From an uncultured Gammaproteobacteria bacterium (lineage in GTDB: Bacteria; Patescibacteriota; Patescibacteriia; UBA1558; 2-01-FULL-52-15), in assembly GCA_964402565.1 (NCBI GenBank), contig CAYOCJ010000002.1, forward strand, positions 170,982 to 234,981: 64,000 bases of DNA. The letters run 5' to 3'. Shown here one piece after another: positions 10,100 through 53,905 of the stretch. The translations under genes were made by a program, and so were the position numbers. Position 1 is the stretch's first letter. Each line of letters begins with the position of its first letter. The notes beneath the pieces were generated by a model, which did not search any database, had not been told where the DNA came from, and saw nothing but the letters and a program-made list of their open reading frames with translations.

Positions 10100-10189
10100 G
10101 GCGGAGACGGGAGGATTCGAACCTCCGAGACCCTTTGGGGGTCTAACGCTTTTCGAGAGCGCCCCGTTCAACCACTCTGGCACGTCTCC
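10099..10189 (-). tRNA. tRNA-Ser (anticodon CGA), CCA encoded
   Basis: Cloverleaf with acceptor GGAGACG/CGTCTCC. Anticodon stem GCGCU/AGCGU with loop CUCGAAA (U33, CGA, A37). Long variable arm GACCC/GGGUC and T-arm GGAGG-TTCGAAT-CCTCC. Confidence 0.9.
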
Positions 10190-10226
10190 ATCCGCGCTTA
10201 GTATACTTATTTCTTGTATTTTTTCA

Positions 10227-11069
10227 ATGCAGAGGCTCTTTATGGTATACTATGCATATCACACTATGACCATTACGTATCCCAAGGGTGACAGTGACTC
10301 ATCAGCCAACCTGAATCCGCCCGCAAGCGCATCGCATCTGACCGCCGTAGCAATTGCGGTAAGCATCGTCTTCCTCGTTGTCGCTGCAGGCTTGTGGTAT
10401 GGCTTTTCGCAATCAAAAAAAGCTGTCGAATCCGTTCCTGCTGCGGTCATTCCGCTGCCTGCATCGCCTGCAGTGGAAGGAGCGCGCGTGTATGAGGCGA
10501 TCGATGGATTACAGCAATGTCAAAAGAATACTCCTGATCTGAACACGGCTGACGCACAGAAGAAGAGGCAGAATTGCTATTATGCGGTCATGACAATTTT
10601 TGCAACATCATCTATTTGCAATATCATTGCATTGGACGGCAGCAGCTCAGATCTTTGCAAGCAAGCAGAAGCCCGTTTCATCAAGGATTATCCGAACGGC
10701 ATACCGAAAACGGATATACCGCTAGTCGGTGCAAAGACAAATGCAAATTCAAATCCCTCCGTTCCTGGCTCCGGCGGTTCGGCAGGGTTAGGCACGAAAG
10801 GTAGCACTGGATCCACCGGCGGTAGCGGAGGGATAAACTCGAATACGAACACGCAATCTAATACAAATACCGGCTCGCAGAACACGAATACCAACTCAAC
10901 AAGCAATGCGAATACTTCCGGCAATACTAATACTGCGGGCAATTCCAATAGTTCGACCAGCCAAAACAGCAATAACAACAGCAATCAGAACGAAACATCA
11001 AATGATCTGCCCCCATGCCTGAATGACGGTGGTGAGCCGACCTTGTTGCAGCATACCAACTGCCAATAG
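10227..11069 (+). CDS. membrane-anchored protein with an Asn/Thr/Ser/Gly-rich low-complexity C-terminal tail
   Basis: Single TM (LTAVAIAVSIVFLVVAAGLWYGF), then NTNTQSNTNTGSQNTNTNST... Start taken at an ATG downstream of the tRNA (10227 or 10266). The ORF-track start at 10098 overlaps the tRNA and is rejected. Confidence 0.5.
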   Translation: MQRLFMVYYAYHTMTITYPKGDSDSSANLNPPASASHLTAVAIAVSIVFLVVAAGLWYGFSQSKKAVESVPAAVIPLPASPAVEGARVYEAIDGLQQCQKNTPDLNTADAQKKRQNCYYAVMTIFATSSICNIIALDGSSSDLCKQAEARFIKDYPNGIPKTDIPLVGAKTNANSNPSVPGSGGSAGLGTKGSTGSTGGSGGINSNTNTQSNTNTGSQNTNTNSTSNANTSGNTNTAGNSNSSTSQNSNNNSNQNETSNDLPPCLNDGGEPTLLQHTNCQ

Positions 11070-11162
11070 TAACCTGGTTCAAATGTCCCGCTCCGCGCAA
11101 ATAACCGTAGATCGGTTCAAAAATGATTGTCCGAAAGCAGTCATTTTTGTTATAATTCCAGT

Positions 11163-11780
11163 ATGAGAAAAATTATCACCACGACATTCGTAACGATGGA
11201 TGGCGTCATGCAGGCACCAGGCGAATCAAAGGAAGATACTGCTGACGGTTTTGCGTATGGAGGTTGGCAGCAGCAGTCTGACTGGGCTGATGACATAACG
11301 GGCAAGATCATCAAGGCTTTCATGACCGCTCCTTTTGAGCTGCTCTTGGGAAGGCGCACTTACGATATCTTTGCCGGGTACTGGCCCAATCATCCAGAAA
11401 TTGAGCTCATAGCTAAACCGTTCAACAGCACAAAAAAGTATGTTGTCTCCCATGCGCCCATGGAACTTTCTTGGAATAATTCTGCGCTCATTACAGGAGA
11501 CGTGGTGGCAGAAATAAAAAAACTTAAAACTTTAGACGGTCCCGATCTGTGGGTGTGGGGTAGCGGCAACCTCATCCAAACGCTCCTGCAGCACAACCTC
11601 ATAGATCGAATGTACGTCTGGACGCATCCTGTCACTATCGGCACTGGCAAGAAATTATTTGCGGAAGGCACACAACCCGAGCGATTTAAAGTTGTTGACT
11701 CAAAAATCTCCACAACTGGTGTCGTTATCGTAACCTATGAGCCTGACGGACAGCTCAAAACAGGTTCGTTTGTTAAGTAG
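11163..11780 (+). CDS. dihydrofolate-reductase-family protein (RibD C-terminal-domain-like)
   Basis: MRKIITTTFVTMDGVMQAP...LLLGRRTY...WVWGSGNLIQTLL pattern of the DHFR-like/YwjB family. Confidence 0.65.
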   Translation: MRKIITTTFVTMDGVMQAPGESKEDTADGFAYGGWQQQSDWADDITGKIIKAFMTAPFELLLGRRTYDIFAGYWPNHPEIELIAKPFNSTKKYVVSHAPMELSWNNSALITGDVVAEIKKLKTLDGPDLWVWGSGNLIQTLLQHNLIDRMYVWTHPVTIGTGKKLFAEGTQPERFKVVDSKISTTGVVIVTYEPDGQLKTGSFVK

Positions 11781-11888
11781 AACTATTCCTTCAAATCAGG
11801 TATCAAGACCGAAGGATTTTCTCTAATCTTATTTCCAACAGCGTCCAGTACGTTGCGGATCGGGATTTTTTTATTTTTCTGCAGAAAA

Positions 11889-11910
11889 GTGGCAAATATG
11901 CTATACTATA
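11889..11910 (+). promoter_or_regulatory. putative extended -10 promoter (TGcTATACT) for pilB
   Basis: tgctatactat is 10-20 nt upstream of the pilB ATG. No good -35 was seen. Confidence 0.3.
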
Positions 11911-11919
11911 GTTCAAACT

Positions 11920-13650
11920 ATGAGACTACCGATCACCTACGAAGACCTAAAAACCTTACTGTTCAATCAAAAGTTGATCAGCCAATCCGATTGGACAAGC
12001 GCTGAAAAGAATGCGAACCGCAGACGCCGTGGCATTGAAGAGGTTTTGATAGAGAGAGGCTTTTTCACTGAAGCGTACCTGTTTGAAATGATAGCTGCTG
12101 CACTGAAGATACCCTATATCAACCTGCGCACGGTGAAAGTCGAGGATGATGCGTTCAAAATGCTGCCAGAAGACGTTGCGCAAACGACGAAATGCATCGC
12201 ATTCGAGAAAAATACGAAGAAAGGAACGATAAAAGTCGCCACGTTAAATCCGCTCAGCACTGAAAGTCTGACCGCGGCACAGCAGGCGATAGGGCAAACC
12301 TGTGAATGGTTCCTCATGAATGACAAGAGTTACCGGTACGCTCTTCGTTTTTATAATACTGACCTGAAAGAAGATCTGCTGAAAATCATCAATCAGCATA
12401 TACAGGGCGTGCAAGGCAAGGCTATCGGCTTGGATTTGCCTGTGGTCAAGATATTCGATACCTTGCTCGAATATGCATTGCTTGAGCAGGCGTCTGATAT
12501 CCACATTGAACCGTTGTCAGATGCAGTACTTGTCCGTTTCCGTATCGACGGCGAACTCGAGGATAAGATCGAATTGCCGATCTCACTCAAGGATGCAATG
12601 ATTGCACGCATCAAGATCCTGTCTGACCTAAAGATCGATGAACATCGGGTCCCGCAGGACGGTCGTTTAGGTTTCAAGATCGATGATCTGGAAGAATCAG
12701 CCCGTGTTTCCATCATACCGACGATGTATGGAGAAAAAGCCGTGATGCGGCTGCTTTCAGACGAGATGCAGAATTTCAGTTTGCAGGATATTGGTCTGTC
12801 AAAAAAGAATCATGATCTGGTTCTGCGCAGCATACAGAAGCCGTTCGGCATGATACTCGTCGTCGGCCCTACTGGATCTGGCAAAACAACTACGTTGTAT
12901 GCCATTTTGAATATTTTGAATACGGAAGATGTAAATATCTCGACCATCGAAGATCCTATCGAATATGGCATCCGGCGCGTGAATCAAACGCAGGTGAATA
13001 CGACAGCGGGATATACATTTGCCAGTGGTTTGCGCTCATTGCTGCGGCAGGATCCTGATATCATCATGATCGGTGAGATCCGCGACGGTGAGACCGCACA
13101 GATAGCCGTTCGCGCTGCATTGACCGGGCATCTGGTCCTTTCTACATTGCACACAAATAATGCCGCAGGAGCCTTGCCTCGCTTGCTTGATATGGGCGTC
13201 GAGCCTTTCCTGACCGCATCGACGGTCAATATTGTCATCGCACAGCGGCTAGTCCGCAGGATTTGCATAGAATGCATTGCGAGTTATAAACTATCTGGTG
13301 TAGAGGTAAAGGCATTGTCAAAAGAGTATGATTTGCGGGCAATAGTTATACGCATGCAGAAGTTGGGCGTCATTGATAAAAAAATCGAGAACTTTTCAAG
13401 CCTGCCCTTCTATAAGGGCAAAGGGTGCAATCGATGCCACGGCACTGGCTATACGGGGCGTGTTTCCGTGACGGAAGCTTTGGTTAATAGCCATGCGATA
13501 CAGCAGGCGATCATAAAGAATATGTCGTCGGAAGACTTTGAAGCGATCGCATTGCAAGAAGGCATGATACCGATTTTCGATGATGCGATGCAGAAAGCAT
13601 TGCTTGGCGTCACAACCCTAGAAGAAGTATTGCGAATTTCAAGAGAATAA
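11920..13650 (+). CDS. pilB: type IV pilus assembly ATPase (GspE/PilB family)
   Basis: N-terminal GSPII_E N domains. Walker A is VVGPTGSGKTTTLY. Asp/His boxes include GEIRDGETAQIAVRAALTGHLVLSTLHTNNAAG. C-terminal tetracysteine CIECIASY...CNRCHGTGY. Confidence 0.92.
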   Translation: MRLPITYEDLKTLLFNQKLISQSDWTSAEKNANRRRRGIEEVLIERGFFTEAYLFEMIAAALKIPYINLRTVKVEDDAFKMLPEDVAQTTKCIAFEKNTKKGTIKVATLNPLSTESLTAAQQAIGQTCEWFLMNDKSYRYALRFYNTDLKEDLLKIINQHIQGVQGKAIGLDLPVVKIFDTLLEYALLEQASDIHIEPLSDAVLVRFRIDGELEDKIELPISLKDAMIARIKILSDLKIDEHRVPQDGRLGFKIDDLEESARVSIIPTMYGEKAVMRLLSDEMQNFSLQDIGLSKKNHDLVLRSIQKPFGMILVVGPTGSGKTTTLYAILNILNTEDVNISTIEDPIEYGIRRVNQTQVNTTAGYTFASGLRSLLRQDPDIIMIGEIRDGETAQIAVRAALTGHLVLSTLHTNNAAGALPRLLDMGVEPFLTASTVNIVIAQRLVRRICIECIASYKLSGVEVKALSKEYDLRAIVIRMQKLGVIDKKIENFSSLPFYKGKGCNRCHGTGYTGRVSVTEALVNSHAIQQAIIKNMSSEDFEAIALQEGMIPIFDDAMQKALLGVTTLEEVLRISRE

Positions 13651-13651
13651 T

Positions 13652-14848
13652 ATGGCAGCACCAGCAGCAGCCACCATGCAGGCACCGATGCAGCCCCTGC
13701 GCAAGCAGGAGGGCGCTCTTTCGTCATTGCCGACGCCGACTCAGAAAGAACAGGCGGTACAGGTTGTCAAACAGCAGCGAGAGAAAAAGGAAAAGAAACC
13801 GCTCATATCCTTGGGCGTTTCTCAGAACGAGAAGATTTTTTTTATCGACAACCTGGCGACCATGCTGACCGCCGGTTTGTCGCTATCATTGGGGCTTCGT
13901 ACTTTGTCGACCGAGACCAAAAATAAGACCATGAAGCGGGCATTGCGATCGATCGAACATGTGATCGATAACGGGCGCCAGCTCTCTGACGGTTTGGCGC
14001 AACACCCGGAAGTGTTCCCGCCATTATTTGTCGCAGTTATTCGCGTCGGCGAGGCCGGCGGAACGCTTTCAGATGTATTGATTCGTCTTGCCGCCATTGC
14101 AAAAAAGGAAAAAGCGCTGCGCAGCAAGGTTATCAGCGCTCTGATCTATCCGGCTATCGTTGTCCTTGCAATGATCGCAATTGTATTCATTCTGATGCTG
14201 TATGTATTCCCGCAGCTCATCGCTATCTTCGAAGATGTGGGAGCAGAATTGCCGATCCAGACCAGGATACTTATCGCCACCGTGCATTTTTTCCAAAATT
14301 ACGGAGTCTATATCGGCCTTGGTGCGATTCTATTGTTCATTTTGTTCATCTTCGGCCGCCGTTTCAAAAAAATTCACCGTTTCTATCACTTAATGCTCCT
14401 GGGCATGCCGTTTTTCGGCAAGATCGCGAAAGAATTGGCGCTGACCAGGATCCTGGGCAATATTAAAATGCTTATGGTATCAGGCGTGCCTATCGTCCAA
14501 GCATTCACGATCGGCTCAAAGACTGCCGGCAACCTTGTCTATGAAGAAGAATTGGTGCGGATCTCAAGAAAGCTGGAATTGGGCAATTCACTGCATACCA
14601 TTCTGAGCCAGCGGCCCGCGCTCTTTCCTTCGCTTGCCGTAACCATGGCTAAGGTCGGCGAAGAGACCGGAAAGCTGGATGAGATCATGGGCAAGCTTCA
14701 GGCATTCTATGAAAATCGCGTTGATACGGTATTCTCAAACCTGTCGACTATCATTGAGCCGTTCCTACTGCTTTCGATAGGAGTCATGGTCGGCTTTATA
14801 GCCGTATCCGTGATCATGCCAATTTATAATTTGGCGCAATCCTTCTAG
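13652..14848 (+). CDS. pilC: type IV pilus / T2SS platform protein (GspF/PilC family)
   Basis: Two T2SS_F domains, each followed by TM helices. It lies immediately downstream of pilB. Confidence 0.9.
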   Translation: MAAPAAATMQAPMQPLRKQEGALSSLPTPTQKEQAVQVVKQQREKKEKKPLISLGVSQNEKIFFIDNLATMLTAGLSLSLGLRTLSTETKNKTMKRALRSIEHVIDNGRQLSDGLAQHPEVFPPLFVAVIRVGEAGGTLSDVLIRLAAIAKKEKALRSKVISALIYPAIVVLAMIAIVFILMLYVFPQLIAIFEDVGAELPIQTRILIATVHFFQNYGVYIGLGAILLFILFIFGRRFKKIHRFYHLMLLGMPFFGKIAKELALTRILGNIKMLMVSGVPIVQAFTIGSKTAGNLVYEEELVRISRKLELGNSLHTILSQRPALFPSLAVTMAKVGEETGKLDEIMGKLQAFYENRVDTVFSNLSTIIEPFLLLSIGVMVGFIAVSVIMPIYNLAQSF

Positions 14849-16276
14849 TTATAATTCTCTCCAGGTAATGATATCGTAGGCGGTTTCAGTCGAGGGGAAA
14901 TAAGGTGGTGAGAAGTAGAGCAAGTTCGCGTCATAGGTAATGACGCGATTTTGATATCCATTCCCATCGCTGTATCGCGTGCCATAGACACCGTTCGAAG
15001 CTATCAGGCCAAAGAGAGTCAGTGATTGTCTGGTTCCATACGGCGAGCAATATGCAGCAGGGTAGTAGTAGCGTCCGACGCGACCGTTCTTTGCCACTAA
15101 AGCAGCGTCGATCCGCAAATTATCGGCGCTGACCATGCCGGTATTAATATTGTTTTGCGCGATGATCCCGAGGATATCCCTTCCGTCATAATTCGTATAA
15201 CTCAGGTCATCATTGATAGTGACGTTCGCATAGGTCGTCGGGTTTTCCGGGAATCGCGCTGCACCGATCGTCAGCCGGGCAGTATTTATTTTTCCGTCGA
15301 CCCATAAATCATCTTCCACGAATAAGGCTCCATTGCCTGGGAGGTTGATCGTGTTTTGGAACACTTGCGTCGAGATGCTCCAGGTTCCCCATCCGCTCTG
15401 ATTCTGCGTATTTGAACAATTCACATTAGGCGGCGCAACGAGAGCCGTGACTTTATAGACATCGATGGTGTCATTCGTCTTGAGCACTAAGTGGTATCCC
15501 AATGCTCCCGAATTCGCCATGTATGTTCCCCCAGACTGAGCTTTGGATTTTATCGTTGCGAGGTCTTCAGTGATTCCAGCGAAATCGAATGCAGGTACCG
15601 GGAATTGCCTGCCGCCGGCAAATACATCAGGCCTGCTGGGGGCGCTTGCTGGTGGCAATGGATCCGTTGGGCTCACGTGTGTATGCACGCCGAATTCATT
15701 TGCGCCTGCGTGGCTGGGGTCGTCGTATTGTGTCACTGAGCTGGTTACTAAACCATTCGCGAGACCATCAAACCGAATGCCTCCATTGGCATGGATCTTA
15801 CCATTCACGGTGACATTCTCAGCGAAATAGAGGTTCGTGTTGCCGATCACCGCATAGGAAGCGAGCGATGGCTGACCGAGCACGACTTCTACCGTACGGC
15901 TTGCACGGGGATCTGCATCGACCTTGCCAGTTGATTTGATCGTTGCCGTATTAAAGCCATCAGCCGGAGGAGTGATCTCAAGGGAGAATTCTCCAATACG
16001 GTTGCCGCCGACATCATCGTATTCATGGATATAGGGGCCTGGGTTTCCGGTGCCGTCCTGGAAATCATCCGGCGAATGCGCCAATCGCCAGCGGTAATAC
16101 TCGATGCCTGACTCGGCGACATTAATTGCCTGCTCGCGGTAGTATTCATGTTTTGAAAATCGTATATTCGAACTTGCCCATGCGATGAGGCCGCCGATAA
16201 AGATAAAAGCGATCGCAGCAAATACTAAGACTTGAAAAAGGATAGCGCCCTCTTGGTTGATGTGTTTGCTTTTCAT
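14849..16276 (-). CDS. PilX/ComGG-like pilus-associated protein with an N-terminal TM anchor
   Basis: N-terminal hydrophobic helix followed by AINVAESGIEYYRWRL, resembling the PilX_N signature. It is the last gene of the pilin operon. Confidence 0.55.
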   Translation of the reverse strand: MKSKHINQEGAILFQVLVFAAIAFIFIGGLIAWASSNIRFSKHEYYREQAINVAESGIEYYRWRLAHSPDDFQDGTGNPGPYIHEYDDVGGNRIGEFSLEITPPADGFNTATIKSTGKVDADPRASRTVEVVLGQPSLASYAVIGNTNLYFAENVTVNGKIHANGGIRFDGLANGLVTSSVTQYDDPSHAGANEFGVHTHVSPTDPLPPASAPSRPDVFAGGRQFPVPAFDFAGITEDLATIKSKAQSGGTYMANSGALGYHLVLKTNDTIDVYKVTALVAPPNVNCSNTQNQSGWGTWSISTQVFQNTINLPGNGALFVEDDLWVDGKINTARLTIGAARFPENPTTYANVTINDDLSYTNYDGRDILGIIAQNNINTGMVSADNLRIDAALVAKNGRVGRYYYPAAYCSPYGTRQSLTLFGLIASNGVYGTRYSDGNGYQNRVITYDANLLYFSPPYFPSTETAYDIITWREL

Positions 16277-16872
16277 TTGTTTTTCAGTGATCGTATATCT
16301 GCCCGGGTTTCCAGCGTACGCGGCATCTGGTCAGCAACCCGCGGGTCGACGGAAATATGCAATTCAACCAGACGAACATCTGCGGGTGACACCGGCTGTG
16401 TCAATGGCGGCGTAGAGGTCGAACCGTCAAAGCTACTGCCATAGTAAATAAAGTAAGGCGGCGCAGTGATGACATTGTCGACCATCGAGCTGACGCTTTC
16501 ATTTGCCGAATCATAGGACAGCGGTTGTCCGGTCGGCACGATCAGGCCTCGTTTGAGTGATCCGTTCTCCACAAAGTAGCGAATGCGCTCGACAATGCCA
16601 TCACCGCTGCGGTCCGCGTAGAAAGAAACAACACTGTCAGTACTGCTGGCCACCGGGAAGCTGCCGTCATTCGGGATCTGCGCAGCCCTGATCTCTGAAG
16701 TGAAATTGCGCAGCACCAAAAGCGACTGCTGGTCTAATGTGCTCCGTGCTTTCGAAATTTGGTTGTCGCGGAGGATCTTTATTTGCAGGACAGAAATGGC
16801 AGTAATGATCAGGCTAAAGATGCCAACCGATATTATGACTTCAAGGATAGTAAAGCCGCGATGCCGTTGCAT
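16273..16872 (-). CDS. type IV pilin / pseudopilin
   Basis: Class III signal MQRHRG|FTILEVIISVGIFSLIITAISV with Glu at +5. Start chosen at the Met just before the motif (cat at 16870-16872). The upstream giant pilin ends in TAATG overlap. Confidence 0.85.
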   Translation of the reverse strand: MQRHRGFTILEVIISVGIFSLIITAISVLQIKILRDNQISKARSTLDQQSLLVLRNFTSEIRAAQIPNDGSFPVASSTDSVVSFYADRSGDGIVERIRYFVENGSLKRGLIVPTGQPLSYDSANESVSSMVDNVITAPPYFIYYGSSFDGSTSTPPLTQPVSPADVRLVELHISVDPRVADQMPRTLETRADIRSLKNK

Positions 16873-39359: not shown

Positions 39360-39761
39360 ATGTTTTTCGCCATGGTGATTGGCAGCATCGGTGCCGGACT
39401 TCTGGGTTCGCTGTTTTGGACGCTCATCATGCTCGCAGCCGGCTTCTGGGAAATGTACAGGTACAAAGAGAAGTGGGACTACGAGATGACGATCCTGGTA
39501 TCTGCCATAGCTTTCAGCATCGTGGTCGGAAGCGCCTTGACTTGGACTTCATTACAGCTCGTGCCTTCTGCTTTGAACCGTCCGGCGAATGAAATGGGCG
39601 GCTCAGATTTGCTGGTGAGCCTCGTAGCCGGATTTGGCAGCTGGTACCTCTTTTTCAACACGAAGAACAGGATCGAAGACTACTTCGAGTATGTCTATAA
39701 GCCCCAGCAAGAGCGAAAAGCAAAGGCGATCCGTGAGGGCCTGATCTCGCGAGAACATTGA
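39360..39761 (+). CDS. small membrane protein
   Basis: Strong SD aaaggaggagg 5 nt before the ATG. 3-4 TM helices. A terminator follows at 39766-39800. Confidence 0.6.
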   Translation: MFFAMVIGSIGAGLLGSLFWTLIMLAAGFWEMYRYKEKWDYEMTILVSAIAFSIVVGSALTWTSLQLVPSALNRPANEMGGSDLLVSLVAGFGSWYLFFNTKNRIEDYFEYVYKPQQERKAKAIREGLISREH

Positions 39762-39765
39762 CTGC

Positions 39766-39800
39766 TAAGTCCACCCCTAAAAAGGTGGACTTGTCATTTA
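39766..39800 (+). terminator. intrinsic terminator
   Basis: agtccacc-cctaaaaa-ggtggact followed by a T-rich run. Confidence 0.5.
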
Positions 39801-39815
39801 GATGAATGATATAGG

Positions 39816-39844
39816 TTGACACAATCGTAAATATTTGGTATAAG
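39816..39844 (+). promoter_or_regulatory. sigma70-like promoter (TTGACA-17-TATAAG) at the start of high-GC island 1
   Basis: ttgaca (39816-39821), a 17-nt spacer, then tataag (39839-44), about 60 nt upstream of the GTG at 39903. Confidence 0.5.
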
Positions 39845-39902
39845 TATTTGTTTTCTAAAACATCAACGTTTCATCTTTTGGCGCTTGCGCCAAGGAGGAA
39901 TT

Positions 39903-40964
39903 GTGACGAAAGCAAGGTTCTTTTTCATCCTGATCCTGATCATCCTGATCTGGCCTCACCAGCAGGCTCTGGCTTCCGAGAATACGACAAAGACATGCCA
40001 CATCGGAGCGCATCCGATCAGCACCGAGCAGAAGTGGGATCCGAAAACGGAATACCTCGTGCCCATGACCGAGGCGACCTTCGTTCAGATGCTCGACTCC
40101 CGGAACGAAGAAGCTGACTGCCTACTCACCGCGCCGTATCACGTGGTAGCGTCTCTCAAGGACGGCCGCTGGCTCCGAGTGCTCGAGTGTTCGAATACTT
40201 TGGTTGGTCAGCCGCATTTCTCGGAGATTCCAAAACCTCCGGAAACTGAAAACACGCCGTCAATCCTCAAGCTGGTTCCTACAGAAGAGACCGGCAGCAT
40301 CGTGATCAAGACGGACTCCGAGCCTTCCACGATTTTGAAGAAGACCGATGTCTACCCGTTCATCGGGCCGAGCGTCTGGTCATTGCCAGGTGCAGGCATC
40401 GAGGGTGGCGTGGAGGTCAATTACCGACATCTGCTCTTTGGAGGCGTCTTTCTCCATCACGAGTCAGGCGCGCATCTGCAAGATGCGAGCGAGTCAGCGT
40501 GCTGGGATAGCGCTGCTATGGGATGTGGCGGCAAGATCGCGCCGTATTGGCCGTGCCTGGTCGCTGATTTCAACCACCGAGCTTTCAAGTCCTCATTTGG
40601 TTGGGGAGTGGAACTCGGATTTCGGGAGCGGTTCACGGGCAATAGGTCCAGAAGCCGTTTTGCGCTCGGCCCGGAGATCGGGCACATTGCATACGGCAGC
40701 GACTTCAACCGGGGTCAGCTGATCAACATGGTCGGCATCGGATTCTCCGTCGACCTCGAGGCAATGAACGACGTTGTCGATGACAGTATGATCGTCATTG
40801 GCATCGACCGTGTTCAACGGCCATCCGTGTCTGCAAGTACGCAGACCGTCGACGTCTGCTGGGCAGACTACGGCAACCAGTGCAAGAGCTTCTCGCACCA
40901 GTGGCCGGGAGTGTCTGCCAAGAACGAGCTTGTGCTCAAGGTTGCCTGGGATTTCTGGTTCTAG
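39903..40964 (+). CDS. secreted hypothetical protein, beta-strand-rich, C-terminal ...WDFWF (high-GC island 1)
   Basis: GTG start with SD aaggagga. Signal peptide MTKARFFFILILIILIWPHQQALA. Alternating hydrophobic beta-strand patterns and a terminal aromatic Phe. The coding DNA is about 58% GC against about 43% in the flanks. Confidence 0.6.
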   Translation: MTKARFFFILILIILIWPHQQALASENTTKTCHIGAHPISTEQKWDPKTEYLVPMTEATFVQMLDSRNEEADCLLTAPYHVVASLKDGRWLRVLECSNTLVGQPHFSEIPKPPETENTPSILKLVPTEETGSIVIKTDSEPSTILKKTDVYPFIGPSVWSLPGAGIEGGVEVNYRHLLFGGVFLHHESGAHLQDASESACWDSAAMGCGGKIAPYWPCLVADFNHRAFKSSFGWGVELGFRERFTGNRSRSRFALGPEIGHIAYGSDFNRGQLINMVGIGFSVDLEAMNDVVDDSMIVIGIDRVQRPSVSASTQTVDVCWADYGNQCKSFSHQWPGVSAKNELVLKVAWDFWF

Positions 40965-47884: not shown

Positions 47885-48655
47885 TTATTTTATAGAACCG
47901 CGATAAACGCGCATGGTGTCCAATGATCCCTGGAAAAGTGCTCCAGTTGGGGTTCCTCCGGCATTATTACTTTGGAAAGTAGGGTTTGCATTCGATAAAG
48001 TCGAATTTTTACTGAGTGTAATGTCAACCGGGGTCATTTTTGTACCATCAAAATATGCTGTAGCATTGGATGACCGAACAGCGGTGATCACAATAAAGTG
48101 CCAATTCCCATCATTAACTAACCCCACAGGCACGACTGGATATTCTCTGGTAGTACCGACTCCATCTGCTAAGCCCAAAAATAAACCACTATCGGTATTA
48201 TACCGCACGTACCAGAAATTATTATCAATAAGACCAGCTTTACCCGTTGGGATGACGCTTGTTTTCATCCAAAATGACACCGTGAAATCATCGAGGTCTA
48301 TTTGGTAATCAGTAGTGCCGGCATTGATCCATGCACCAGGGACAAAAGAATAGCATGCACCGCTTACGCAGTTATCAGCGGTAGCAAATGAGCCGCCTGC
48401 GCCTAATGCAAAGCCATTATGGCCGTAACCGGATGTGTCTGCAAAGTTATTGTCGAATTTCCATTCTGCAAGCAGGTCTGCACCGAGCGCCCGATAGACC
48501 GATGTTTCGAAGCTTTTTACAGCAACGGTCCGAGCTTTTTGTTTTGCTGAACTGAGGTTTACTATAGCTATGGATGCCAGAAGTCCGATGATTGCGATTA
48601 CCACGAGCATTTCGATCAGCGTGAAAGCCCGCTTGTTTCTCATGAGGATATGCAT
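47885..48655 (-). CDS. type IV pilin-like protein with a LamG/ConA-like globular domain
   Basis: MRNKRA|FTLIEMLVVIAIIGLLASIAI prepilin N-terminus with Ala, not Gly, at -1. The rest resembles a concanavalin-like lectin fold (NGNWHF..., LDTMRVY). Confidence 0.75.
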   Translation of the reverse strand: MHILMRNKRAFTLIEMLVVIAIIGLLASIAIVNLSSAKQKARTVAVKSFETSVYRALGADLLAEWKFDNNFADTSGYGHNGFALGAGGSFATADNCVSGACYSFVPGAWINAGTTDYQIDLDDFTVSFWMKTSVIPTGKAGLIDNNFWYVRYNTDSGLFLGLADGVGTTREYPVVPVGLVNDGNWHFIVITAVRSSNATAYFDGTKMTPVDITLSKNSTLSNANPTFQSNNAGGTPTGALFQGSLDTMRVYRGSIK

Positions 48656-48736: not shown

Positions 48737-50719
48737 ATGGAAAAGAAGAAATTCATTCTCGAGTCAATGTATAAGCCTACGGGCGATCAGCCGCAGGCTA
48801 TCGCTGCTTTGGTCAGTGGATTATCGAAAAAATTAGACAAGCAAGTTCTTGTCGGTGTCACTGGTTCAGGCAAAACCTTTACGATAGCCAATGTCATCGC
48901 ACAGGCGCAACGGCCGACTTTGGTGATCTCGCACAATAAAACTCTGGCAGCTCAGCTCGCCAGCGAGTTTCAGGATTTTTTTCCGAAGAATGCGGTTCAT
49001 TATTTCGTATCCTATTATGACTACTATCAGCCTGAAGCATATATTCCAACGACCGATACGCATATTGATAAAGAAACGCAGATCAACGAGGAAATTGACC
49101 GCCTCCGCCATGCTGCTACGCAGGCTGTGCTGACCAGGCGAGACGTGGTGATCGTTGCTTCTGTTTCATGCATTTACGGTTTGGGAGACCCGGAAGATTA
49201 TTCGAAAGTACGGATCGAAGTACAAGTTGGCAAAGAATATTCTGTAGAAAAGTTACTGAGACAGCTGCATTATTTGCAGTATCAGCGAAATGACACCAGT
49301 CTGGTCCGCGGCACGTATACGGTCAAAGGAGAACTTTTGGAAATTTTTGCATCCAGCGACGCAGAATCATTCTATCGCCTGGAGTTTTATGGTTCAAAGC
49401 TTGAAAAGATCAAACGCGTACATTATGTAACGAAGGATGTCGAAGATGCCACTCTTACCGAGCTTTCTATTTTTCCGGCGAAGCATTACCTGGCACCGCA
49501 AGAAAGCGTTCCCGAGATACTTGATGAGATACGATCTGATATGCAGAAGCAGGTGACGCTTTTCAAATCGCAAAATAAATTAATCGAAGCGCAGCGCATC
49601 GAAGAACGGGTGAGTTTTGATCTTGAAATGATCGAGACCGTGGGCTATTGCAATGGCATTGAGAATTACTCACGGTATTTTGATCGTAGGAAACCCGGTC
49701 TGCCGCCCGCGACCTTGCTTGAGTATTTTCCTGATGATTTTCTGCTGGTGGTTGATGAATCGCATATTACCTTGCCGCAGATACGGGGAATGTATAATGG
49801 CGACCGGTCGAGAAAATCCGTGCTCGTGGATTATGGCTGGCGTTTGCCGGCAGCTTTGGACAATAGGCCTCTCCAGTGGGACGAATTTTTGGCGCGGACT
49901 GATCAGACTATCTATATGTCTGCAACGCCTAGTGCGTATGAACTGACCGAGTCGAAACAGCGCGTTGAGCAGATCATCAGGCCGACCGGTCTTCTCGATC
50001 CTGAAGTAGAAGTACGACAGACCGCAGGCCAGATCACTGATGTTGAAAAAGAAATTGAAGCACGGGTAGCGAAGAAGCAGCGTGTGCTGATCACGACGCT
50101 GACGAAACGCTTGGCTGAGGATTTGGCAGAACATTTGCTTTTGAAAAAAGTTAAAGTACAGTATTTGCATTCTGATGTGGATACCTTGGACCGGCTCACC
50201 ATCCTGAAAGACCTCCGTTCAGGAAAATACGACGTGCTCGTGGGCATCAACTTGCTTCGCGAGGGTCTGGATCTGCCTGAAGTGTCGCTGGTCATTGTGC
50301 TTGATGCAGATAAGGAAGGTTTTTTGCGAAACGAGTCATCGCTGATCCAGACCATGGGCCGTGCCGCGCGCCATAAAGACGGACATGTCATCATGTATGC
50401 TGACCGGATGACCGATTCGATGAAGAAAGCTATTGCCGAGACCAATCGCCGACGTGAAATTCAGATGGCATACAATAAGAAGAATCATATTACTCCAGAA
50501 TCGATCATTCGCGGCATTAAAGATACGGCTCTGAAAGGCATGGATGTGAAAGAGGATTTCAAGAAAGAGATCACGCATTTGTCGCGTGATGAGAAAGCAT
50601 ATCTGATAGATACGTTACAACAGCAGATGCAAGTTCATGCGGAGAACCTTGAATTTGAACGGGCAGCTATTCTCAGAGATCAGATAGAGATTTTGAAAAA
50701 ATCACGTAGTAAAAAATAG
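48737..50719 (+). CDS. uvrB: excinuclease ABC subunit B
   Basis: Walker A GVTGSGKTFT, the helicase motifs, beta-hairpin region, and the C-terminal UvrC-interaction helix (ENLEFERAAILRDQIEILKK). Confidence 0.95.
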   Translation: MEKKKFILESMYKPTGDQPQAIAALVSGLSKKLDKQVLVGVTGSGKTFTIANVIAQAQRPTLVISHNKTLAAQLASEFQDFFPKNAVHYFVSYYDYYQPEAYIPTTDTHIDKETQINEEIDRLRHAATQAVLTRRDVVIVASVSCIYGLGDPEDYSKVRIEVQVGKEYSVEKLLRQLHYLQYQRNDTSLVRGTYTVKGELLEIFASSDAESFYRLEFYGSKLEKIKRVHYVTKDVEDATLTELSIFPAKHYLAPQESVPEILDEIRSDMQKQVTLFKSQNKLIEAQRIEERVSFDLEMIETVGYCNGIENYSRYFDRRKPGLPPATLLEYFPDDFLLVVDESHITLPQIRGMYNGDRSRKSVLVDYGWRLPAALDNRPLQWDEFLARTDQTIYMSATPSAYELTESKQRVEQIIRPTGLLDPEVEVRQTAGQITDVEKEIEARVAKKQRVLITTLTKRLAEDLAEHLLLKKVKVQYLHSDVDTLDRLTILKDLRSGKYDVLVGINLLREGLDLPEVSLVIVLDADKEGFLRNESSLIQTMGRAARHKDGHVIMYADRMTDSMKKAIAETNRRREIQMAYNKKNHITPESIIRGIKDTALKGMDVKEDFKKEITHLSRDEKAYLIDTLQQQMQVHAENLEFERAAILRDQIEILKKSRSKK

Positions 50720-50720
50720 T

Positions 50721-50846
50721 CGGCCTCGTCAGCACCGTCATTTCGAGTGAGCGGAGCGAATCGAGAAATCCCGGTGAGATAGAGTTAGCCTTTCTACCAA
50801 CGGGATCTCTCCACTCCGCTTCGCTTCGGTCGAGATGACGAGGCCG
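50721..50846. repeat. ~125-nt imperfect palindromic element (outer 11-bp stem cggcctcgtca/tgacgaggccg) immediately after uvrB
   Basis: Seen directly. Arms share agcggag and gaga(a/g)atcccg segments. Not simply a short hairpin plus T-run. Confidence 0.6.
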
Positions 50847-50974
50847 CCATTCTTTCTATAAAAAGAAAAGCCCCGATCCGTACCGCACTGGTTGTTCCAG
50901 TTTGGATTGGATCGGGGTCTTGTGCGGCCAGGTTGTTCGTTTGAACGACCTGGCCGTAGTCTTCGTTGAGCTTT

Positions 50975-51454
50975 CTAGTGGATATCGGGCATCGTCGGGT
51001 CGCAGATCACAGGGATCCCACGATGGTAGCCCATCAGGCCGCCGTCGATCCCGTCGCTGCTCTGCTCGCCCCAGCCGCCGTCCTGTTTCATGAGGACGAC
51101 TGCATGGGTGAAGCCTTGGAGAACTCGCCTCTCGTTTTTCGAGATGCGGACGTTCTCGACGCCGGCGACATGCCCGGCCTTGCAGCGCTCGACGATGTCA
51201 GCGTAGATCGCATGACGGCGCTCCTCATCCGAATCACGGTACGTGCCGTTGCCCCCGTTCACTCCGTCGCTGCATCGGACCGCGTAGACTTCCCCGGTTT
51301 TCTGATCCGTGAAGTACTCGTCCCACGCCATGCCGTAGCACCCGCCGATGGCTTCCGGGTCGAAGTCGTCGCCGCGCTTGTTCGGGTCGCCGTCGGCCCG
51401 AAGGTCGAAGATGTCGGCGAAACGTCGTTGCTGGATCCCGCTGGCCAGTGTCAT
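50975..51454 (-). CDS. hypothetical soluble protein (high-GC island 2)
   Basis: ATG with SD aggaggtga. The 159-aa product is Gly/Asp-rich with no recognised domain. Coding GC is about 58-60%. Confidence 0.5.
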   Translation of the reverse strand: MTLASGIQQRRFADIFDLRADGDPNKRGDDFDPEAIGGCYGMAWDEYFTDQKTGEVYAVRCSDGVNGGNGTYRDSDEERRHAIYADIVERCKAGHVAGVENVRISKNERRVLQGFTHAVVLMKQDGGWGEQSSDGIDGGLMGYHRGIPVICDPTMPDIH

Positions 51455-51466
51455 CGTGTTTTCCTT

Positions 51467-52018
51467 TCACCTCCTGAAGAGGAGGATCGTGAGAACCAAA
51501 CCCTGAATTCCGAAGAAGGCGACCGGCTGTGCGCCGCTCGCAATGGACCAGTGACTGACCGAGAGAAGCGCGCAAACGCTTCCGGTAACAGTCACGATCC
51601 ATGCTGACAGACTTTCGTGATGGGGTTTAAGCCACGCGTTCCTGAATGTCGGGTATGCAGCGATCACATTCGCCAGGAGGCTGAAGATGATCGCTGTCTC
51701 AGGCTGGCCAAACAAGAACAGCATGCTTATACCAGCGCCGACAGCACTTGCTTTGTCGCTCCAGTGCCATTCGGGGTCGCCGTACTTGCGTGCAAGATAG
51801 GCGACGATGATGGCTCCGAAGAAACAGACGATGATCTGTCCGTTTGTTTCTCTGCGCAGCAACATGCCTGCCGCTGTGATGGTGTCGAGGATGGACCAGA
51901 TGATCCATGAAGCCTTGGCCGGCTTGCAGCCTTTCTTCACGATGGCGTGGATATACAAGGTGAAGGAAGCCGCCGTGAAGATCCCTGATAGGATCGAGAA
52001 GACGTAGTACCAGTTCAC
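51467..52018 (-). CDS. hypothetical polytopic membrane protein, paralog of the next gene (high-GC island 2)
   Basis: GTG start at 52016-52018 with SD aggagga 6 nt upstream. Shares KPxxASW...W and PTxxxxxxxPxxESxxxW blocks with the 52033..52653 product. The longer ORF-track version (to 52426) overlaps the neighbour out of frame and is rejected. Confidence 0.5.
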   Translation of the reverse strand: MNWYYVFSILSGIFTAASFTLYIHAIVKKGCKPAKASWIIWSILDTITAAGMLLRRETNGQIIVCFFGAIIVAYLARKYGDPEWHWSDKASAVGAGISMLFLFGQPETAIIFSLLANVIAAYPTFRNAWLKPHHESLSAWIVTVTGSVCALLSVSHWSIASGAQPVAFFGIQGLVLTILLFRR

Positions 52019-52032
52019 GATGGTTCCTCCTG

Positions 52033-52653
52033 TTATGCCGTGAAGGATTCTTTTCTCCGCTGCCTGCAGAGAAATGCAATCGCTCCATGGCAGATGAGCA
52101 GTACCAGTGGCGTGATCAGCCCGATCAACTTCGTGGTGCCCATGTCGATGGACAACAGAACATTCACGGTGCTCATTGAGAATGCAATTGTCCAGAGTAC
52201 CCACGGGAGAGGGGATTCTTTGAACGGATTTGCTTTCACTCCATCGAGCGTCGGTTTGAACGAGATGAGGAACGCCAAAAGCACGATCATGTTCGCGCTG
52301 GTGGCGCTGCGAAGCGCCCACCAGATCAAGATTGCGAGCAAACCGAGTGCGAACAGCGCACATTCCTTTGGCGTAAGCCGGGAGAATTTCCCGATGAAAA
52401 GCACGTAGATGAAAGTGAGCATGCATGCTACCGATCCGGTCATGAACTGAAGCGACGCCACAACATCTCCGCTCATCTGGAAATAGGAGAGAGCATTGAG
52501 TGTGGCGAGAAACGCCCAGAGACTCCAGCTTGCAGCATTGGGCTTAGAACTGCCCAATTTAGCCTGCCGATTGTAGAGAAGGTAGGCGACGCCGTGCAGG
52601 ATCGCTGCACAAACAGCAATGACTATGGCCAGCTTGTGCATGGCGACCCCCAT
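52033..52653 (-). CDS. hypothetical polytopic membrane protein (high-GC island 2)
   Basis: 206 aa, about 6 TM helices. Paralogous to the 51467..52018 gene. Confidence 0.55.
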   Translation of the reverse strand: MGVAMHKLAIVIAVCAAILHGVAYLLYNRQAKLGSSKPNAASWSLWAFLATLNALSYFQMSGDVVASLQFMTGSVACMLTFIYVLFIGKFSRLTPKECALFALGLLAILIWWALRSATSANMIVLLAFLISFKPTLDGVKANPFKESPLPWVLWTIAFSMSTVNVLLSIDMGTTKLIGLITPLVLLICHGAIAFLCRQRRKESFTA

Positions 52654-52747
52654 GATTTCGAAGTTAGTTGTAAAAGAGCTCTAGTCTAAGCAGATTTTGC
52701 CTAGGTTACCACGTGAATGGTAATTATATATGATAGCATTTTATTAA

Positions 52748-52780
52748 CCTTTTGTCAATATTAGCCAAATCCTGTACTAT
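52748..52780 (+). promoter_or_regulatory. sigma70-like promoter (TTGTCA-17-TACTAT) upstream of the truB fusion gene
   Basis: ttgtca atattagccaaatcctg tactat is 7 nt before the ATG region. Confidence 0.4.
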
Positions 52781-52786
52781 AGAGGT

Positions 52787-53905
52787 ATGCAAAAAGTACT
52801 TATCTTCGGATCATTCGACATTCTGCACCCAGGCCATATTTTTGTGATTAAGGAAGCGATGAACTATGGCGAGGTGCATGCGGGCTTTGCTTTGGACGAA
52901 ACCATAATCAAACTTAAAGGGAGGCTGCCATATAATTCATTGGAAGTACGTATGAAGAATATTGAGGCGTATGGAGTTACGCCTCATGCTGGTGACCCAG
53001 TTGATCGATTACGGGTGGTGCGAGAAGTAGATCCGGCTATCGTAGTGCTTGGTCATGACCAACATTTCTTTGTGGATGCCCTGGAAGAATATCAACGCAC
53101 ATCAAAACCCGACTTGAAGATTATTCGCATCGGCTCATTCCATGATCAGTTGTTTAGTTCATCAAAGTTTCGAAAAGTTCTTGAAGATGAGAAAGCTGGA
53201 TTTTTACTGATCGATAAAAGATCAGGAGAGCCTTCGCTTCGTACGGTTACAAAATTAAGGAATAGTACTGGCATCAAGCAAATTGGCTTTTCAGGCACCT
53301 TAGATCCATTAGCGTCGGGTTTGCTCATTTGCGGCATCAGCCGCGCAACAACGCTTCTTGACTGGTTTCATTTTTTTCCTAAAACATACGAAGCAGAGTT
53401 GAAACTTGGCGAGGCATCTGATACGTATGACAGTGAAGGCAAGGTAGATTTGGTTTCAGATCGGATCCCCTCAGAAAAAGAAATCACCGGTGCACTAGCA
53501 ATGTTTCTCGGAAATACATCTCAAGAACCGCCTATGTTCTCCGCAAAGAAAGTTCAGGGAAAAAAATTGTACGAGCTTGCACGAAAAGGTCATACGGTTG
53601 AAAGGAAAAGGCAAACTATTAGCATCGATTCTATTGAGATGATGGATTACCAATATCCGAAGCTCGGTTTTAGAGTTACTTGTTCAACAGGCACCTACGT
53701 GCGCTCTCTCATACACGACATTGGCCAGAAGCTGGGCGTGGGCGCTCATATGACCGCATTGCGAAGGCTCGCTATAGGTCCATACAACGTGGAACATGCC
53801 ATTGATCTTACTGCGAATATTGGCTCGGAGTTTTCAAGCAATAGAGTCAGTCCGGAAGATGTGCGCATGAAGCTGAACGAGCATATATGGCGAAGGAACG
53901 CTTGA
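52787..53905 (+). CDS. truB: fusion protein: FAD-synthetase-like nucleotidyltransferase N-domain plus tRNA pseudouridine(55) synthase TruB
   Basis: Residues ~1-150: FGSFDILHPGH (HxGH nucleotidyltransferase motif) ... VVLGHDQHFF (FAD_syn pattern). Residues ~165-372: TruB catalytic GTLDPLASGLL, FSAKKVQGKKLYELARKG and TGTYVRSL. Confidence 0.8.
   Translation: MQKVLIFGSFDILHPGHIFVIKEAMNYGEVHAGFALDETIIKLKGRLPYNSLEVRMKNIEAYGVTPHAGDPVDRLRVVREVDPAIVVLGHDQHFFVDALEEYQRTSKPDLKIIRIGSFHDQLFSSSKFRKVLEDEKAGFLLIDKRSGEPSLRTVTKLRNSTGIKQIGFSGTLDPLASGLLICGISRATTLLDWFHFFPKTYEAELKLGEASDTYDSEGKVDLVSDRIPSEKEITGALAMFLGNTSQEPPMFSAKKVQGKKLYELARKGHTVERKRQTISIDSIEMMDYQYPKLGFRVTCSTGTYVRSLIHDIGQKLGVGAHMTALRRLAIGPYNVEHAIDLTANIGSEFSSNRVSPEDVRMKLNEHIWRRNA

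What the first reader, a model, noticed from the sequence alone, without database searches (positions are those of the whole stretch)
50880..52660. High-GC island 2: three minus-strand genes including tandem paralogous 6-TM proteins
GC about 58-60%, bounded on the left by hairpins (ccccgatcc...ggatcgggg, ggccaggt...acctggcc) and uvrB's palindromic element, and on the right by the truB promoter. The two membrane proteins share KPxxASW and PTx7PxxESxxxW blocks. The second was recoverable only by choosing a GTG with a good SD. There is no homology I can name. I infer it is a transporter pair or a small-molecule handling module acquired horizontally.
Basis: partly seen in the sequence, partly recalled or inferred. 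Interest (0 to 1): 0.55.

Follow-up and report, generated by a model that had tools for sequence, protein, structure and literature searches.

The report
Two SWEET-like membrane genes plus capsid-like gene
A GC-rich three-gene operon between uvrB and truB encodes two related seven-helix membrane proteins with the fold of SWEET/PQ-loop transporters, from a large unnamed family found mainly in Patescibacteria, plus a small protein whose front half resembles a piece of a microvirus capsid protein.

Summary
Three tightly spaced minus-strand genes lie here: A 52033-52641, B 51467-52018 (GTG start), C 50975-51454. A near-consensus promoter precedes them and two hairpins with a T-run follow. GC is 56.5% overall (A 53%, B 55%, C 63%), not 58-60%, but this is the GC-richest 1.8 kb of the window.

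A and B are true but distant paralogs (hhalign 94.7%). The A model has seven helices, not six, at pLDDT 92. Its only good structural matches are the KDEL receptor, cystinosin, SWEET and a viral PQ-loop protein. No Pfam, NCBIfam or PHROG model hits A or B. The family has at least 2,930 clusters at 50% identity.

The A-then-B order recurs in 6 of 50 other B-type loci, and fusions exist, but most members stand alone with no conserved neighbours. C is unlinked to A/B elsewhere. Its N-terminal half is homologous to residues ~109-194 of Microviridae major capsid protein (hhalign 96%, E 3e-9), and three of its five homologs carry a cold-shock domain.

Horizontal origin is plausible but not proven. 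There is no tRNA, integrase or flanking repeat. The GC excess is gene-confined and family-wide in other genomes. The substrate is unknown.

The parts
52730..52758 (-). Sigma-70-type promoter of the operon: TTGACA (52758-52753), 17-nt spacer, TGcTATCAT (-10 at 52735-52730)
   Evidence: 11 of 12 matches, extended -10 TG; sequence. Predicted only.
52706..52723 (-). Inverted repeat TTACCA-N6-TGGTAA at the predicted transcript start; candidate operator or 5' hairpin
   Evidence: Read. No Rfam match in 50500-53000. Not followed up.
52033..52641 (-). Gene A, 202 aa (alternative ATG at 52653). Seven-helix membrane protein, 'A-type' of the family, predicted N-out/C-in
   Evidence: 48 homologs; invariant Y23 G30 S32 P34 W39 W42 N49 F77 P130 E142 W147 P178 H185. 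(AF2 pLDDT 92.3, pTM 0.88, 7 helices). (KDEL receptor, cystinosin, SWEET, viral PQ-loop protein). (K+R bias +8).
51467..52018 (-). Gene B, 183 aa, GTG start after AGGAGG. Divergent paralog of A ('B-type')
   Evidence: (hhalign against the A family: 94.7%, E 5.6e-8). (B-type alignment and 85 metagenome relatives). (K+R bias +7).
50975..51454 (-). Gene C, 159 aa, soluble, GC 63%, GC3 0.82. Residues ~5-88 are homologous to residues ~109-194 of Microviridae major capsid protein VP1/F
   Evidence: 5 homologs, 45 invariant columns. (3 of the 5 homologs carry an N-terminal cold-shock domain). (capsid similarity with controls). (AF2 poor, pLDDT 54.5).
50925..50956 (-). First 3' hairpin (14-bp arms, 93% complementary), directly after the stop codon of C
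50860..50917 (-). Second hairpin (50871-50917) followed on the minus strand by CTTTTCTTTTT (50870-50860): intrinsic-terminator-like end of the operon
   Evidence: both hairpins together -53.7 kcal/mol, z -8.5.
50715..50860 (+). 146-nt long hairpin just after the uvrB stop. It marks the boundary and is probably the uvrB-side terminator or an unclassified element, not part of the operon
   Evidence: -64.3 kcal/mol, z -5.7. (single copy in the window). (no Rfam match).

Best explanation
This is one small operon of three genes of different ancestry, not a conserved functional module.

Genes A and B are paralogous seven-helix inner-membrane proteins. They belong to a large, unannotated protein family found mainly in Patescibacteria. 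The predicted fold is the 3+1+3 fold of the SWEET/PQ-loop superfamily: two three-helix bundles joined by a linker helix, N-terminus outside and C-terminus inside.

I infer that each is a small-solute carrier, either a uniporter or proton-coupled. It would work by alternating access around a central cavity lined by the conserved Trp, Asn, Gln, Glu and His residues of helices 1-2, 5-6 and 7. The cargo would be a polar metabolite that these reduced-genome bacteria must scavenge, such as a sugar, nucleoside, vitamin or amino acid. A and B would differ in specificity or work together.

Gene C is a small soluble protein from a very rare family. Its front half descends from, or shares ancestry with, a segment of the microvirus major capsid protein. 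Its relatives elsewhere are fused to a cold-shock nucleic-acid-binding domain. It is probably co-transcribed here only by position.

Shown here: gene structure, paralogy, fold class, family size and distribution, lack of conserved context, compositional deviation, and the capsid-segment homology. Inferred: transport function, topology, substrate class, co-transcription and lateral origin.
For: Operon anatomy: promoter, 14-nt and 12-nt gaps with Shine-Dalgarno sites, and a double hairpin plus T-run.

Paralogy: BLASTP E 3e-4; hhalign 94.7%, E 5.6e-8.

Fold:
- AF2 gives pLDDT 92.3, pTM 0.88 and seven helices.
- The top 11 PDB matches are all KDEL receptor or cystinosin (TM-score 0.52-0.70, probability 0.93-1.00). 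Below them the TM-score drops to about 0.25. A SWEET is at rank 32.
- The viral library returns 'PQ loop repeat protein [Indivirus]' at TM 0.67, E 1.6e-3.
- A 127-sequence profile has E. coli SemiSWEET 4x5m as its best PDB sequence hit, in register over the whole three-helix protomer, although E is only 0.2 (identity of 4x5m from PMC4309421).
- The N-half and C-half align in register at E 2.5e-3.

Topology: K+R bias is +8 for A and +7 for B.

Family: 2,930 representatives at E<=1e-3. Named members are Saccharibacteria, Paceibacterota, Yanofsky-, Falkow-, Lipton- and Campbellbacteria and Parcubacteria.

Pairing: A lies directly upstream of B in 6 of 50 B-type loci, and fused proteins exist.

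Gene C: hhalign against 5 microvirus capsid proteins gives 96%, E 3.4e-9. Controls give E 0.12 (reversed) and >=0.034 (30 shuffles). The capsid HMM ranks five of the six C-family sequences first among 218 session proteins. At least 66 of 75 weak tblastn hits of homolog P0051 fall on the same part of microvirus capsid genes, in frame. Three of the five homologs have a cold-shock domain.
Against: - No sequence model of PQ-loop, MtN3/SWEET or PnuC reaches significance on A, B or 127 relatives.
- The PQ dipeptide itself is absent: repeat 1 has Y-N-x-Q and repeat 2 has P-T.
- The best structural matches include a receptor (the KDEL receptor), so the fold does not prove transport.
- No neighbouring gene hints at a substrate.
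- B was not modelled.
- Most A-type and B-type genes stand alone, so co-operation of A and B is not required.
- Co-transcription is predicted only.
- For C, only about 80 residues align with the capsid protein. Pfam Phage_F and PHROGs do not hit it, and its model is poor.
Confidence: 0.55

Rival explanations
1. A and B have the PQ-loop-like fold but are not transporters. They could be ligand receptors or sensors like the KDEL receptor, membrane anchors, or phage-exclusion or immunity proteins.
For: The top structural matches are KDEL receptors. No metabolic neighbour is conserved. The family behaves like an accessory, compositionally odd gene.
Against: All known prokaryotic members of this fold class (SemiSWEET, PnuC) are carriers; this rests on established knowledge, not a test here. 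There is no PADLOC or PHROG hit. Conserved polar and aromatic residues lie within helices, as in carriers.
Confidence: 0.2
2. The island is the remnant of an integrated mobile element or microvirus-like prophage that carried A and B as cargo.
For: C has a microvirus capsid-like segment. Composition is an outlier. In L020 both gene types lie in a run of 35 same-strand genes, almost none with a Pfam hit.
Against: There are no other microvirus genes, integrase, tRNA or flanking repeats. A, B and C have no relatives in IMG/VR, and A none in INPHARED. Neighbours of the C homologs have no PHROG hits. C is a conserved, intact 150-aa domain rather than a decaying 500-aa capsid gene. A, B and C differ from one another in GC.
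Confidence: 0.15
3. There was no recent transfer. A and B are long-resident genes, and their higher GC is an intrinsic property of the family, for example from codon or mRNA constraints.
For: The GC excess is confined to the gene in 47 B-type loci, with flanks at baseline within 200 bp. It is seen in 40 of 47 loci, with GC3 +13 points against +0.7 for a hydrophobic control ORF. Gene GC tracks host GC (r 0.67). A-type genes show the same excess in 8 of 13 loci.
Against: Close A relatives (63-66% identity) all sit at 53-54% GC in flanks of 43-52% and in unrelated contexts and lineages, which fits exchange. This reading does not explain C, which is at +3.6 sd.
Confidence: 0.3
4. The island is an assembly chimera that joins foreign high-GC DNA to this genome.
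For: There is an abrupt GC change at both ends.
Against: An independent Logan assembly of SRR12313480 is 100% identical over 8,886 bp across both junctions. The GC boundaries coincide with a promoter and terminators. The caveat is that both assemblies may use the same reads.
Confidence: 0.03

Closest known systems
SWEET / SemiSWEET sugar uniporters (Pfam MtN3_slv)
   Same: Predicted 3+1+3 seven-helix architecture with N-out/C-in topology. There is a weak internal repeat of three-helix units. The family profile aligns in register with the whole E. coli SemiSWEET protomer. Conserved Trp and Asn lie in helix 2.
   Different: No significant sequence match: MtN3_slv hits 2 of 127 members at E 0.059. 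There is no PQ dipeptide. The SWEET structure ranks only 32nd. The substrate is unknown.
PQ-loop proteins: cystinosin and the KDEL receptor
   Same: These are the best structural matches, with TM-score up to 0.70 and Foldseek probability 1.00. The length is about the same as the KDEL receptor. Conserved Glu and His could play the protonation role known in these proteins; that part is inference.
   Different: Those proteins are eukaryotic. Sequence identity is 11-14%. Pfam PQ-loop and ER_lumen_recept do not hit. The cytoplasmic loop motifs here are S-x-P-N-x-x-S-W-x-x-W and P-T-x7-P-x-x-E-x4-W.
PnuC vitamin (nicotinamide riboside) transporters
   Same: A prokaryotic carrier of the same superfamily, of similar size and Trp-rich. 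This is the kind of scavenging function expected in Patescibacteria (from established knowledge).
   Different: There is no Pfam NMN_transporter hit, and no PnuC structure is among the top 50 matches.
Mitochondrial pyruvate carrier MPC1/MPC2 (heterodimer of paralogs in the same clan)
   Same: It gives a precedent for two paralogous subunits of this fold class working together. Here A and B are adjacent and are sometimes fused in other genomes.
   Different: MPC subunits are three-helix units, whereas A and B are each already complete seven-helix units. Pairing occurs in only about 12% of B-type loci.
Microviridae major capsid protein (Pfam Phage_F; gokushovirus VP1), compared with gene C
   Same: About 80 residues align, including D-[FL]-x-[LG]-P-x-D ... 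W-x-E-[YW]-F-x-D ... C-S-x-G.
   Different: C is 159 aa against about 520-545 aa. Its C-terminal half is unrelated. Phage_F does not hit it. No other microvirus genes are nearby. Relatives are fused to a cold-shock domain.

Membership tests
SWEET/PQ-loop superfamily (MtN3-like clan) | Seven helices arranged as two three-helix bundles plus a linker helix (or a three-helix half-unit) | tested here: met
   The AF2 model has seven helices at pLDDT 92.3. Its only good structural matches are the KDEL receptor, cystinosin, SWEET and a viral PQ-loop protein. This is a predicted structure, not a solved one.
SWEET/PQ-loop superfamily (MtN3-like clan) | Internal sequence repeat between helices 1-3 and helices 5-7 | tested here: inconclusive
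   hhalign of the two halves gives E 2.5e-3 and probability 12%, in register over loop 1 / helix 2 against loop 5 / helix 6. BLASTP cross-match of the A second half to the B first half gives E 0.08.
SWEET/PQ-loop superfamily (MtN3-like clan) | PQ dipeptide motif at the end of helix 1 and helix 5 | tested here: not met
   The alignment shows Y23-N-x-Q26 in repeat 1 and P130-T131 in repeat 2. Each repeat keeps only half of the motif.
SWEET/PQ-loop superfamily (MtN3-like clan) | Significant match to the Pfam models PQ-loop, MtN3_slv or ER_lumen_recept | tested here: not met
   There are no hits for A or B at E<=10. Among 127 relatives, MtN3_slv hits only 2, with best E 0.059.
SWEET/PQ-loop superfamily (MtN3-like clan) | Solute transport activity | not testable with these tools
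   This needs expression and transport or binding assays.
PnuC (NMN_transporter) | Match to the Pfam or NCBIfam PnuC models, or to the PnuC structure | tested here: not met
   Searches give no hit. No PnuC entry is in the top 50 structural matches.
Classical genomic island (horizontally acquired) | Composition deviating from the host genome | tested here: met
   This is the top GC segment of the window. GC3 is +1.7, +2.3 and +3.6 sd for A, B and C. For A and B the same excess is family-wide in other genomes.
Classical genomic island (horizontally acquired) | Integration hallmarks: adjacent tRNA, integrase or transposase, flanking direct repeats | tested here: not met
   The only tRNAs are at 10.1 kb and 60.7 kb. 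There are no flanking repeats and no such ORFs.
Classical genomic island (horizontally acquired) | Absence from the same site in close relatives | not testable with these tools
   The flanking proteins are singletons at 90% identity among 15 billion proteins.
Antiparallel (dual-topology-type) paralog pair | The two adjacent paralogs have opposite positive-inside (K+R) bias | tested here: not met
   A is +8 and B is +7, and all other adjacent pairs are also both positive. Opposite bias does occur elsewhere in the family.
Microviridae major capsid protein (Phage_F), for gene C | Match to Pfam Phage_F over the full jelly-roll (about 500 aa) | tested here: not met
   Phage_F does not hit C, while it hits the microvirus proteins at E 1e-116 or better. 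C is 159 aa.
Microviridae major capsid protein (Phage_F), for gene C | Profile-level homology to a capsid segment | tested here: met
   hhalign gives 94.7-96.1%, E 6e-8 to 3e-9, with controls at E>=0.03. Weak tblastn hits are concentrated on microvirus capsid genes.
Microviridae major capsid protein (Phage_F), for gene C | Neighbouring microvirus genes (replication initiator, pilot, scaffold) | tested here: not met
   The window flanks are B and uvrB. Neighbours of the C homologs have no PHROG hits.

The most novel reading that the evidence does not exclude
The island records virus-to-cell and cell-to-cell gene flow in Patescibacteria.
- C would be a domesticated fragment of a microvirus capsid protein. 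Its family is tiny and is elsewhere fused to a cold-shock domain.
- A and B would represent a new, sequence-unrecognisable branch of the SWEET/PQ-loop superfamily. This branch moves as single-gene cassettes that keep their own GC content. It exists in both membrane orientations and also occurs as linker-less antiparallel two-unit fusions.
Probability: 0.3. Interest if true: 0.65.

Novelty: new variant of a known kind. Interest (0 to 1): 0.45.

Why it matters
Patescibacteria lack most biosynthetic pathways and must import building blocks, yet few of their transporters are identified. This family has thousands of sequence clusters, no Pfam model and a confident SWEET/PQ-loop-like model, so it is a concrete candidate for part of that uptake machinery. 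It could be tested by expression and metabolite screening.

Two side results may interest evolutionary biologists. First, the family carries a gene-confined GC excess in most host genomes. Second, a small cellular protein family shares a segment with the microvirus major capsid protein.

For this particular window the finding is modest. It is a small accessory operon of uncertain origin.

Tried and rejected
- Pfam, NCBIfam, PHROGs and PADLOC gave nothing significant on A, B or C. Pfam on 127 relatives gave only scattered noise from membrane families.
- The A-family profile against PDB sequences gave nothing significant.
- IMG/VR scans with the A and C profiles found no relatives. tblastn of A against INPHARED found none.
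- I looked for conserved neighbours in 13 A-type and 80 B-type loci. Only the family itself recurred. A GIY-YIG-like ORF in 8 loci and a serine recombinase in 4 were not consistent.
- I considered a riboflavin or FAD link through the nucleotidyltransferase domain fused to TruB. NCBIfam gives only the generic family, and the adjacency is not conserved.
- I tested whether A and B form an antiparallel pair. Equal K+R bias rejects this.
- Island hallmarks (tRNA, repeats) are absent. Rfam finds nothing in 50500-53000.
- The AF2 model of C was too poor (pLDDT 54.5), so its fold search is meaningless.
- I asked whether a high-GC microvirus donor could explain the GC of C. The nearest capsid genes are 38-52% GC.
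- A weak match between the C-terminal half of C and capsid residues 23-44 (E 0.1) is not significant.
- 'Island 1' at 39.4-41.0 kb is unrelated.
- I could not name the window's own taxon. Its proteins are singletons without names.
Full report
**1. What is there**

Between uvrB (48737-50719, +; NCBIfam UvrB E 3e-298) and truB (52787-53905, +; TruB E 2e-62) lie three minus-strand genes.
- A is 52033-52641, 202 aa. An upstream ATG at 52653 would give 206 aa, but homologs and an independent gene call start at the second ATG.
- B is 51467-52018, 183 aa. It starts at a GTG 7 nt after AGGAGG. The longer ATG ORF of 319 aa overlaps A out of frame and is spurious. The independent call is also 183 aa.
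- C is 50975-51454, 159 aa.

The gaps between genes are 14 and 12 nt. Upstream of A is a near-consensus promoter, TTGACA-17-TGcTATCAT at 52758-52730, matching 11 of 12 positions. Downstream of C are two strong hairpins at 50925-50956 and 50871-50917. Together they fold at -53.7 kcal/mol, z -8.5, and the second is followed by CTTTTCTTTTT. This is the anatomy of a single operon, although co-transcription is inferred. A separate 146-nt hairpin follows the uvrB stop (-64.3 kcal/mol, z -5.7; single copy; no Rfam hit).

**2. Composition**

The stated interval has 56.5% GC against 48.3% for the window. It is the highest-GC 1.8-kb segment of the 64 kb. There is a gradient: C 63.3%, B 55.1%, A 52.9%. 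GC3 is 0.82, 0.71 and 0.67 against 0.527 +/- 0.08 for 47 window ORFs. A Logan assembly is 100% identical over 8,886 bp across both junctions, so a chimera is unlikely. No tRNA, integrase or flanking repeat marks the edges.

**3. A and B**

BLASTP between A and B gives E 3e-4 over helices 1-2. The A-family profile against B gives 94.7% probability, E 5.6e-8 over 132 columns. They are real but old paralogs, at about 20% identity.

No Pfam, NCBIfam or PHROG model hits either protein. A has 48 relatives in the word-indexed search. An exhaustive profile search finds 2,930 representatives of 50%-identity clusters at E<=1e-3, and 1,002 at E<=1e-10. Named members are Patescibacteria of several classes, plus one bin labelled Aenigmatarchaeota. 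Existing annotations are 'hypothetical' or clearly wrong, such as 'Nuclear protein SET'. B looked like an orphan in the word-indexed search. A four-sequence B-type alignment nevertheless recovered 85 metagenome loci, mostly from groundwater and sediment.

**4. Fold**

AlphaFold2 with the 34-sequence alignment gives pLDDT 92.3, pTM 0.88 and seven helices, not six.
- Against the PDB, the first 11 matches are all KDEL receptor or cystinosin (TM-score 0.52-0.70, probability 0.93-1.00). After them the TM-score falls to about 0.25. A eukaryotic SWEET is at rank 32.
- Against predicted viral structures, the named hit is 'PQ loop repeat protein [Indivirus]' at TM 0.67.
- A 127-sequence profile has E. 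coli SemiSWEET as its best PDB sequence hit (4x5m; PMC4309421). It aligns in register over the whole three-helix protomer but is not significant, at E 0.2.
- The two halves of the family alignment match each other in register at E 2.5e-3.
- Charged-residue counts give a strong positive-inside bias for N-out/C-in, +8 for A and +7 for B. This is the orientation of SWEETs (from established knowledge).

Membership by sequence criteria is not met: there are no Pfam hits, even across 127 relatives, and there is no PQ dipeptide. PnuC in particular is not supported.

**5. Are A and B a pair?**

Of 66 distinct B-type loci, 50 have at least 700 bp of upstream sequence. In 6 of these, an A-type unit lies immediately upstream on the same strand, with gaps of 2-88 nt; in one case both units are in the same ORF. 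No A-type unit lies downstream. Two-unit proteins exist, P0100 and P0117.

The A-then-B order in the window is therefore a recurrent arrangement. However, most A-type and B-type genes stand alone. The closest A relatives (63-66% identity) have neither B nor C next to them. No other neighbour is conserved. Cooperation between A and B is possible but not required.

**6. Gene C**

C has only five relatives among 5.8 billion proteins. They are 44-51% identical over about 150 aa, with 45 invariant columns. Three carry an N-terminal cold-shock domain. None lies near an A-type or B-type gene.

Unexpectedly, tblastn of C hit a Microviridae major capsid gene in frame, at E 5e-4. I followed this up.
- The C-family profile against that protein gives 91.5%, E 8.5e-7.
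- Against an alignment of five microvirus capsid proteins it gives 94.7%, E 6.3e-8. The N-terminal half alone gives 96.1%, E 3.4e-9. C residues 5-88 align with capsid residues 109-194.
- Controls: a reversed query gives E 0.12, and 30 column shuffles give E >= 0.034.
- A capsid HMM ranks five of the six C-family sequences first among 218 session proteins (E 7e-8 to 2e-3), always on the same HMM region.
- tblastn of homolog P0051 at E<=10 returns 75 records. At least 66 are microvirus capsid genes, hit at the same position.

Pfam Phage_F does not hit C. The C-terminal half of C has no capsid counterpart. No other microvirus genes are nearby, either here or next to the homologs. The AF2 model of C is poor, so its fold search is uninformative.

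I read C as a small protein family that shares an ~80-residue segment with the microvirus capsid protein. Because the capsid family is vast and the C family is tiny, capture from a virus is the more likely direction, but this is inference.

**7. Horizontal transfer**

For:
- The composition is an outlier, especially for C.
- Close A relatives occur in different Patescibacteria lineages and in unrelated contexts, all at 53-54% GC whatever the flanks.
- Part of C has viral ancestry.

Against a simple 'recent island':
- There are no integration hallmarks.
- The three genes differ from one another in GC.
- The GC excess is a property of the family. B-type genes are GC-richer than their flanks in 40 of 47 loci (median +4.8 points, Wilcoxon p 5e-7).
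- Their GC3 exceeds that of other ORFs in the same locus by a median of 13 points. The control, the most hydrophobic other ORF, is at +0.7.
- The excess begins and ends at the gene borders.
- Gene GC still tracks host GC (r 0.67).
- A-type genes show the excess in 8 of 13 loci, and the C homologs are at +11-12 points.

Either these genes move often as single cassettes, or they carry an intrinsic synonymous-site bias. The data here do not separate the two.

**8. Verdict**

A and B are most likely carriers of the SWEET/PQ-loop fold class, from a large unannotated family found mainly in Patescibacteria. C is an unrelated passenger with a capsid-like segment. Lateral origin is plausible but unproven, and the substrate is unknown.

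For the window itself this is a modest accessory operon. The family-level findings are what deserve follow-up: the size of the family, its fold, its GC excess, its members with opposite membrane orientation, and the capsid-like segment of C.

Noticed in passing
Family level: P0099, P0103, P0106, P0118, P0128, P0140, P0158, P0169, P0175, P0180, P0186, P0188, P0200; P0117 and its cluster mates: Most family units have a K+R bias for N-out/C-in (mean +6.3). About 13 stand-alone representatives have the opposite sign (-4 to -9). The 377-aa two-unit protein P0117, found in several samples, is +6 then -7 with no linker helix, which would make it an antiparallel fusion. This would be unusual for the SWEET/PQ-loop fold class.
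   Followed up: partly
L021-L100 (B-type loci); L001-L019, L107-L110 (A-type loci): Genes of this family are GC-richer than their own flanks in most genomes, and the excess is confined exactly to the gene. The cause is unresolved: repeated single-gene transfer or intrinsic synonymous bias.
   Followed up: partly
window 50715-50860: A 146-nt near-perfect long hairpin lies directly after the uvrB stop (-64.3 kcal/mol, z -5.7). It is single copy in the window and has no Rfam match. It is longer than a usual terminator.
   Followed up: partly
window 52706-52723: An inverted repeat TTACCA-N6-TGGTAA, with a CACGTG core, lies at the predicted start of the A-B-C transcript, inside the 133-bp divergent promoter region shared with truB. 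It is a possible operator.
   Followed up: no
window 52787-53905: TruB carries an N-terminal adenylyl/cytidylyltransferase-family domain (aa 4-61; Pfam CTP_transf_like, NCBIfam TIGR00125). This fusion is not typical of TruB.
   Followed up: partly
window 39360-40964: A second GC-rich patch (GC3 0.68-0.70) encodes a 133-aa membrane protein and a 359-aa protein with a signal-like N-terminus. It is unrelated to A, B or C.
   Followed up: partly
L020 (GCA_016198585.1, labelled Aenigmatarchaeota, 67% GC), 1-16624: Thirty-five consecutive same-strand genes, almost none with a Pfam hit, include a B-type gene (3018-3587), an A-type gene (8001-8624) and several other small membrane proteins. PHROGs gave no support for a virus.
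   Followed up: partly
window 47885-48655: A type IV pilin-like protein with a prepilin N-terminal methylation motif lies just upstream of uvrB.
   Followed up: no
C family, C-terminal end (window C residues ~132-152): The conserved motif G-x-E-G-G-L-V-G...G-I-P-V-I-C-D weakly resembles the capsid N-terminal motif F-D-G-G-x-L-V-P-I (capsid residues 23-44), at E 0.1. This hints at a permuted relationship but is not significant.
   Followed up: partly
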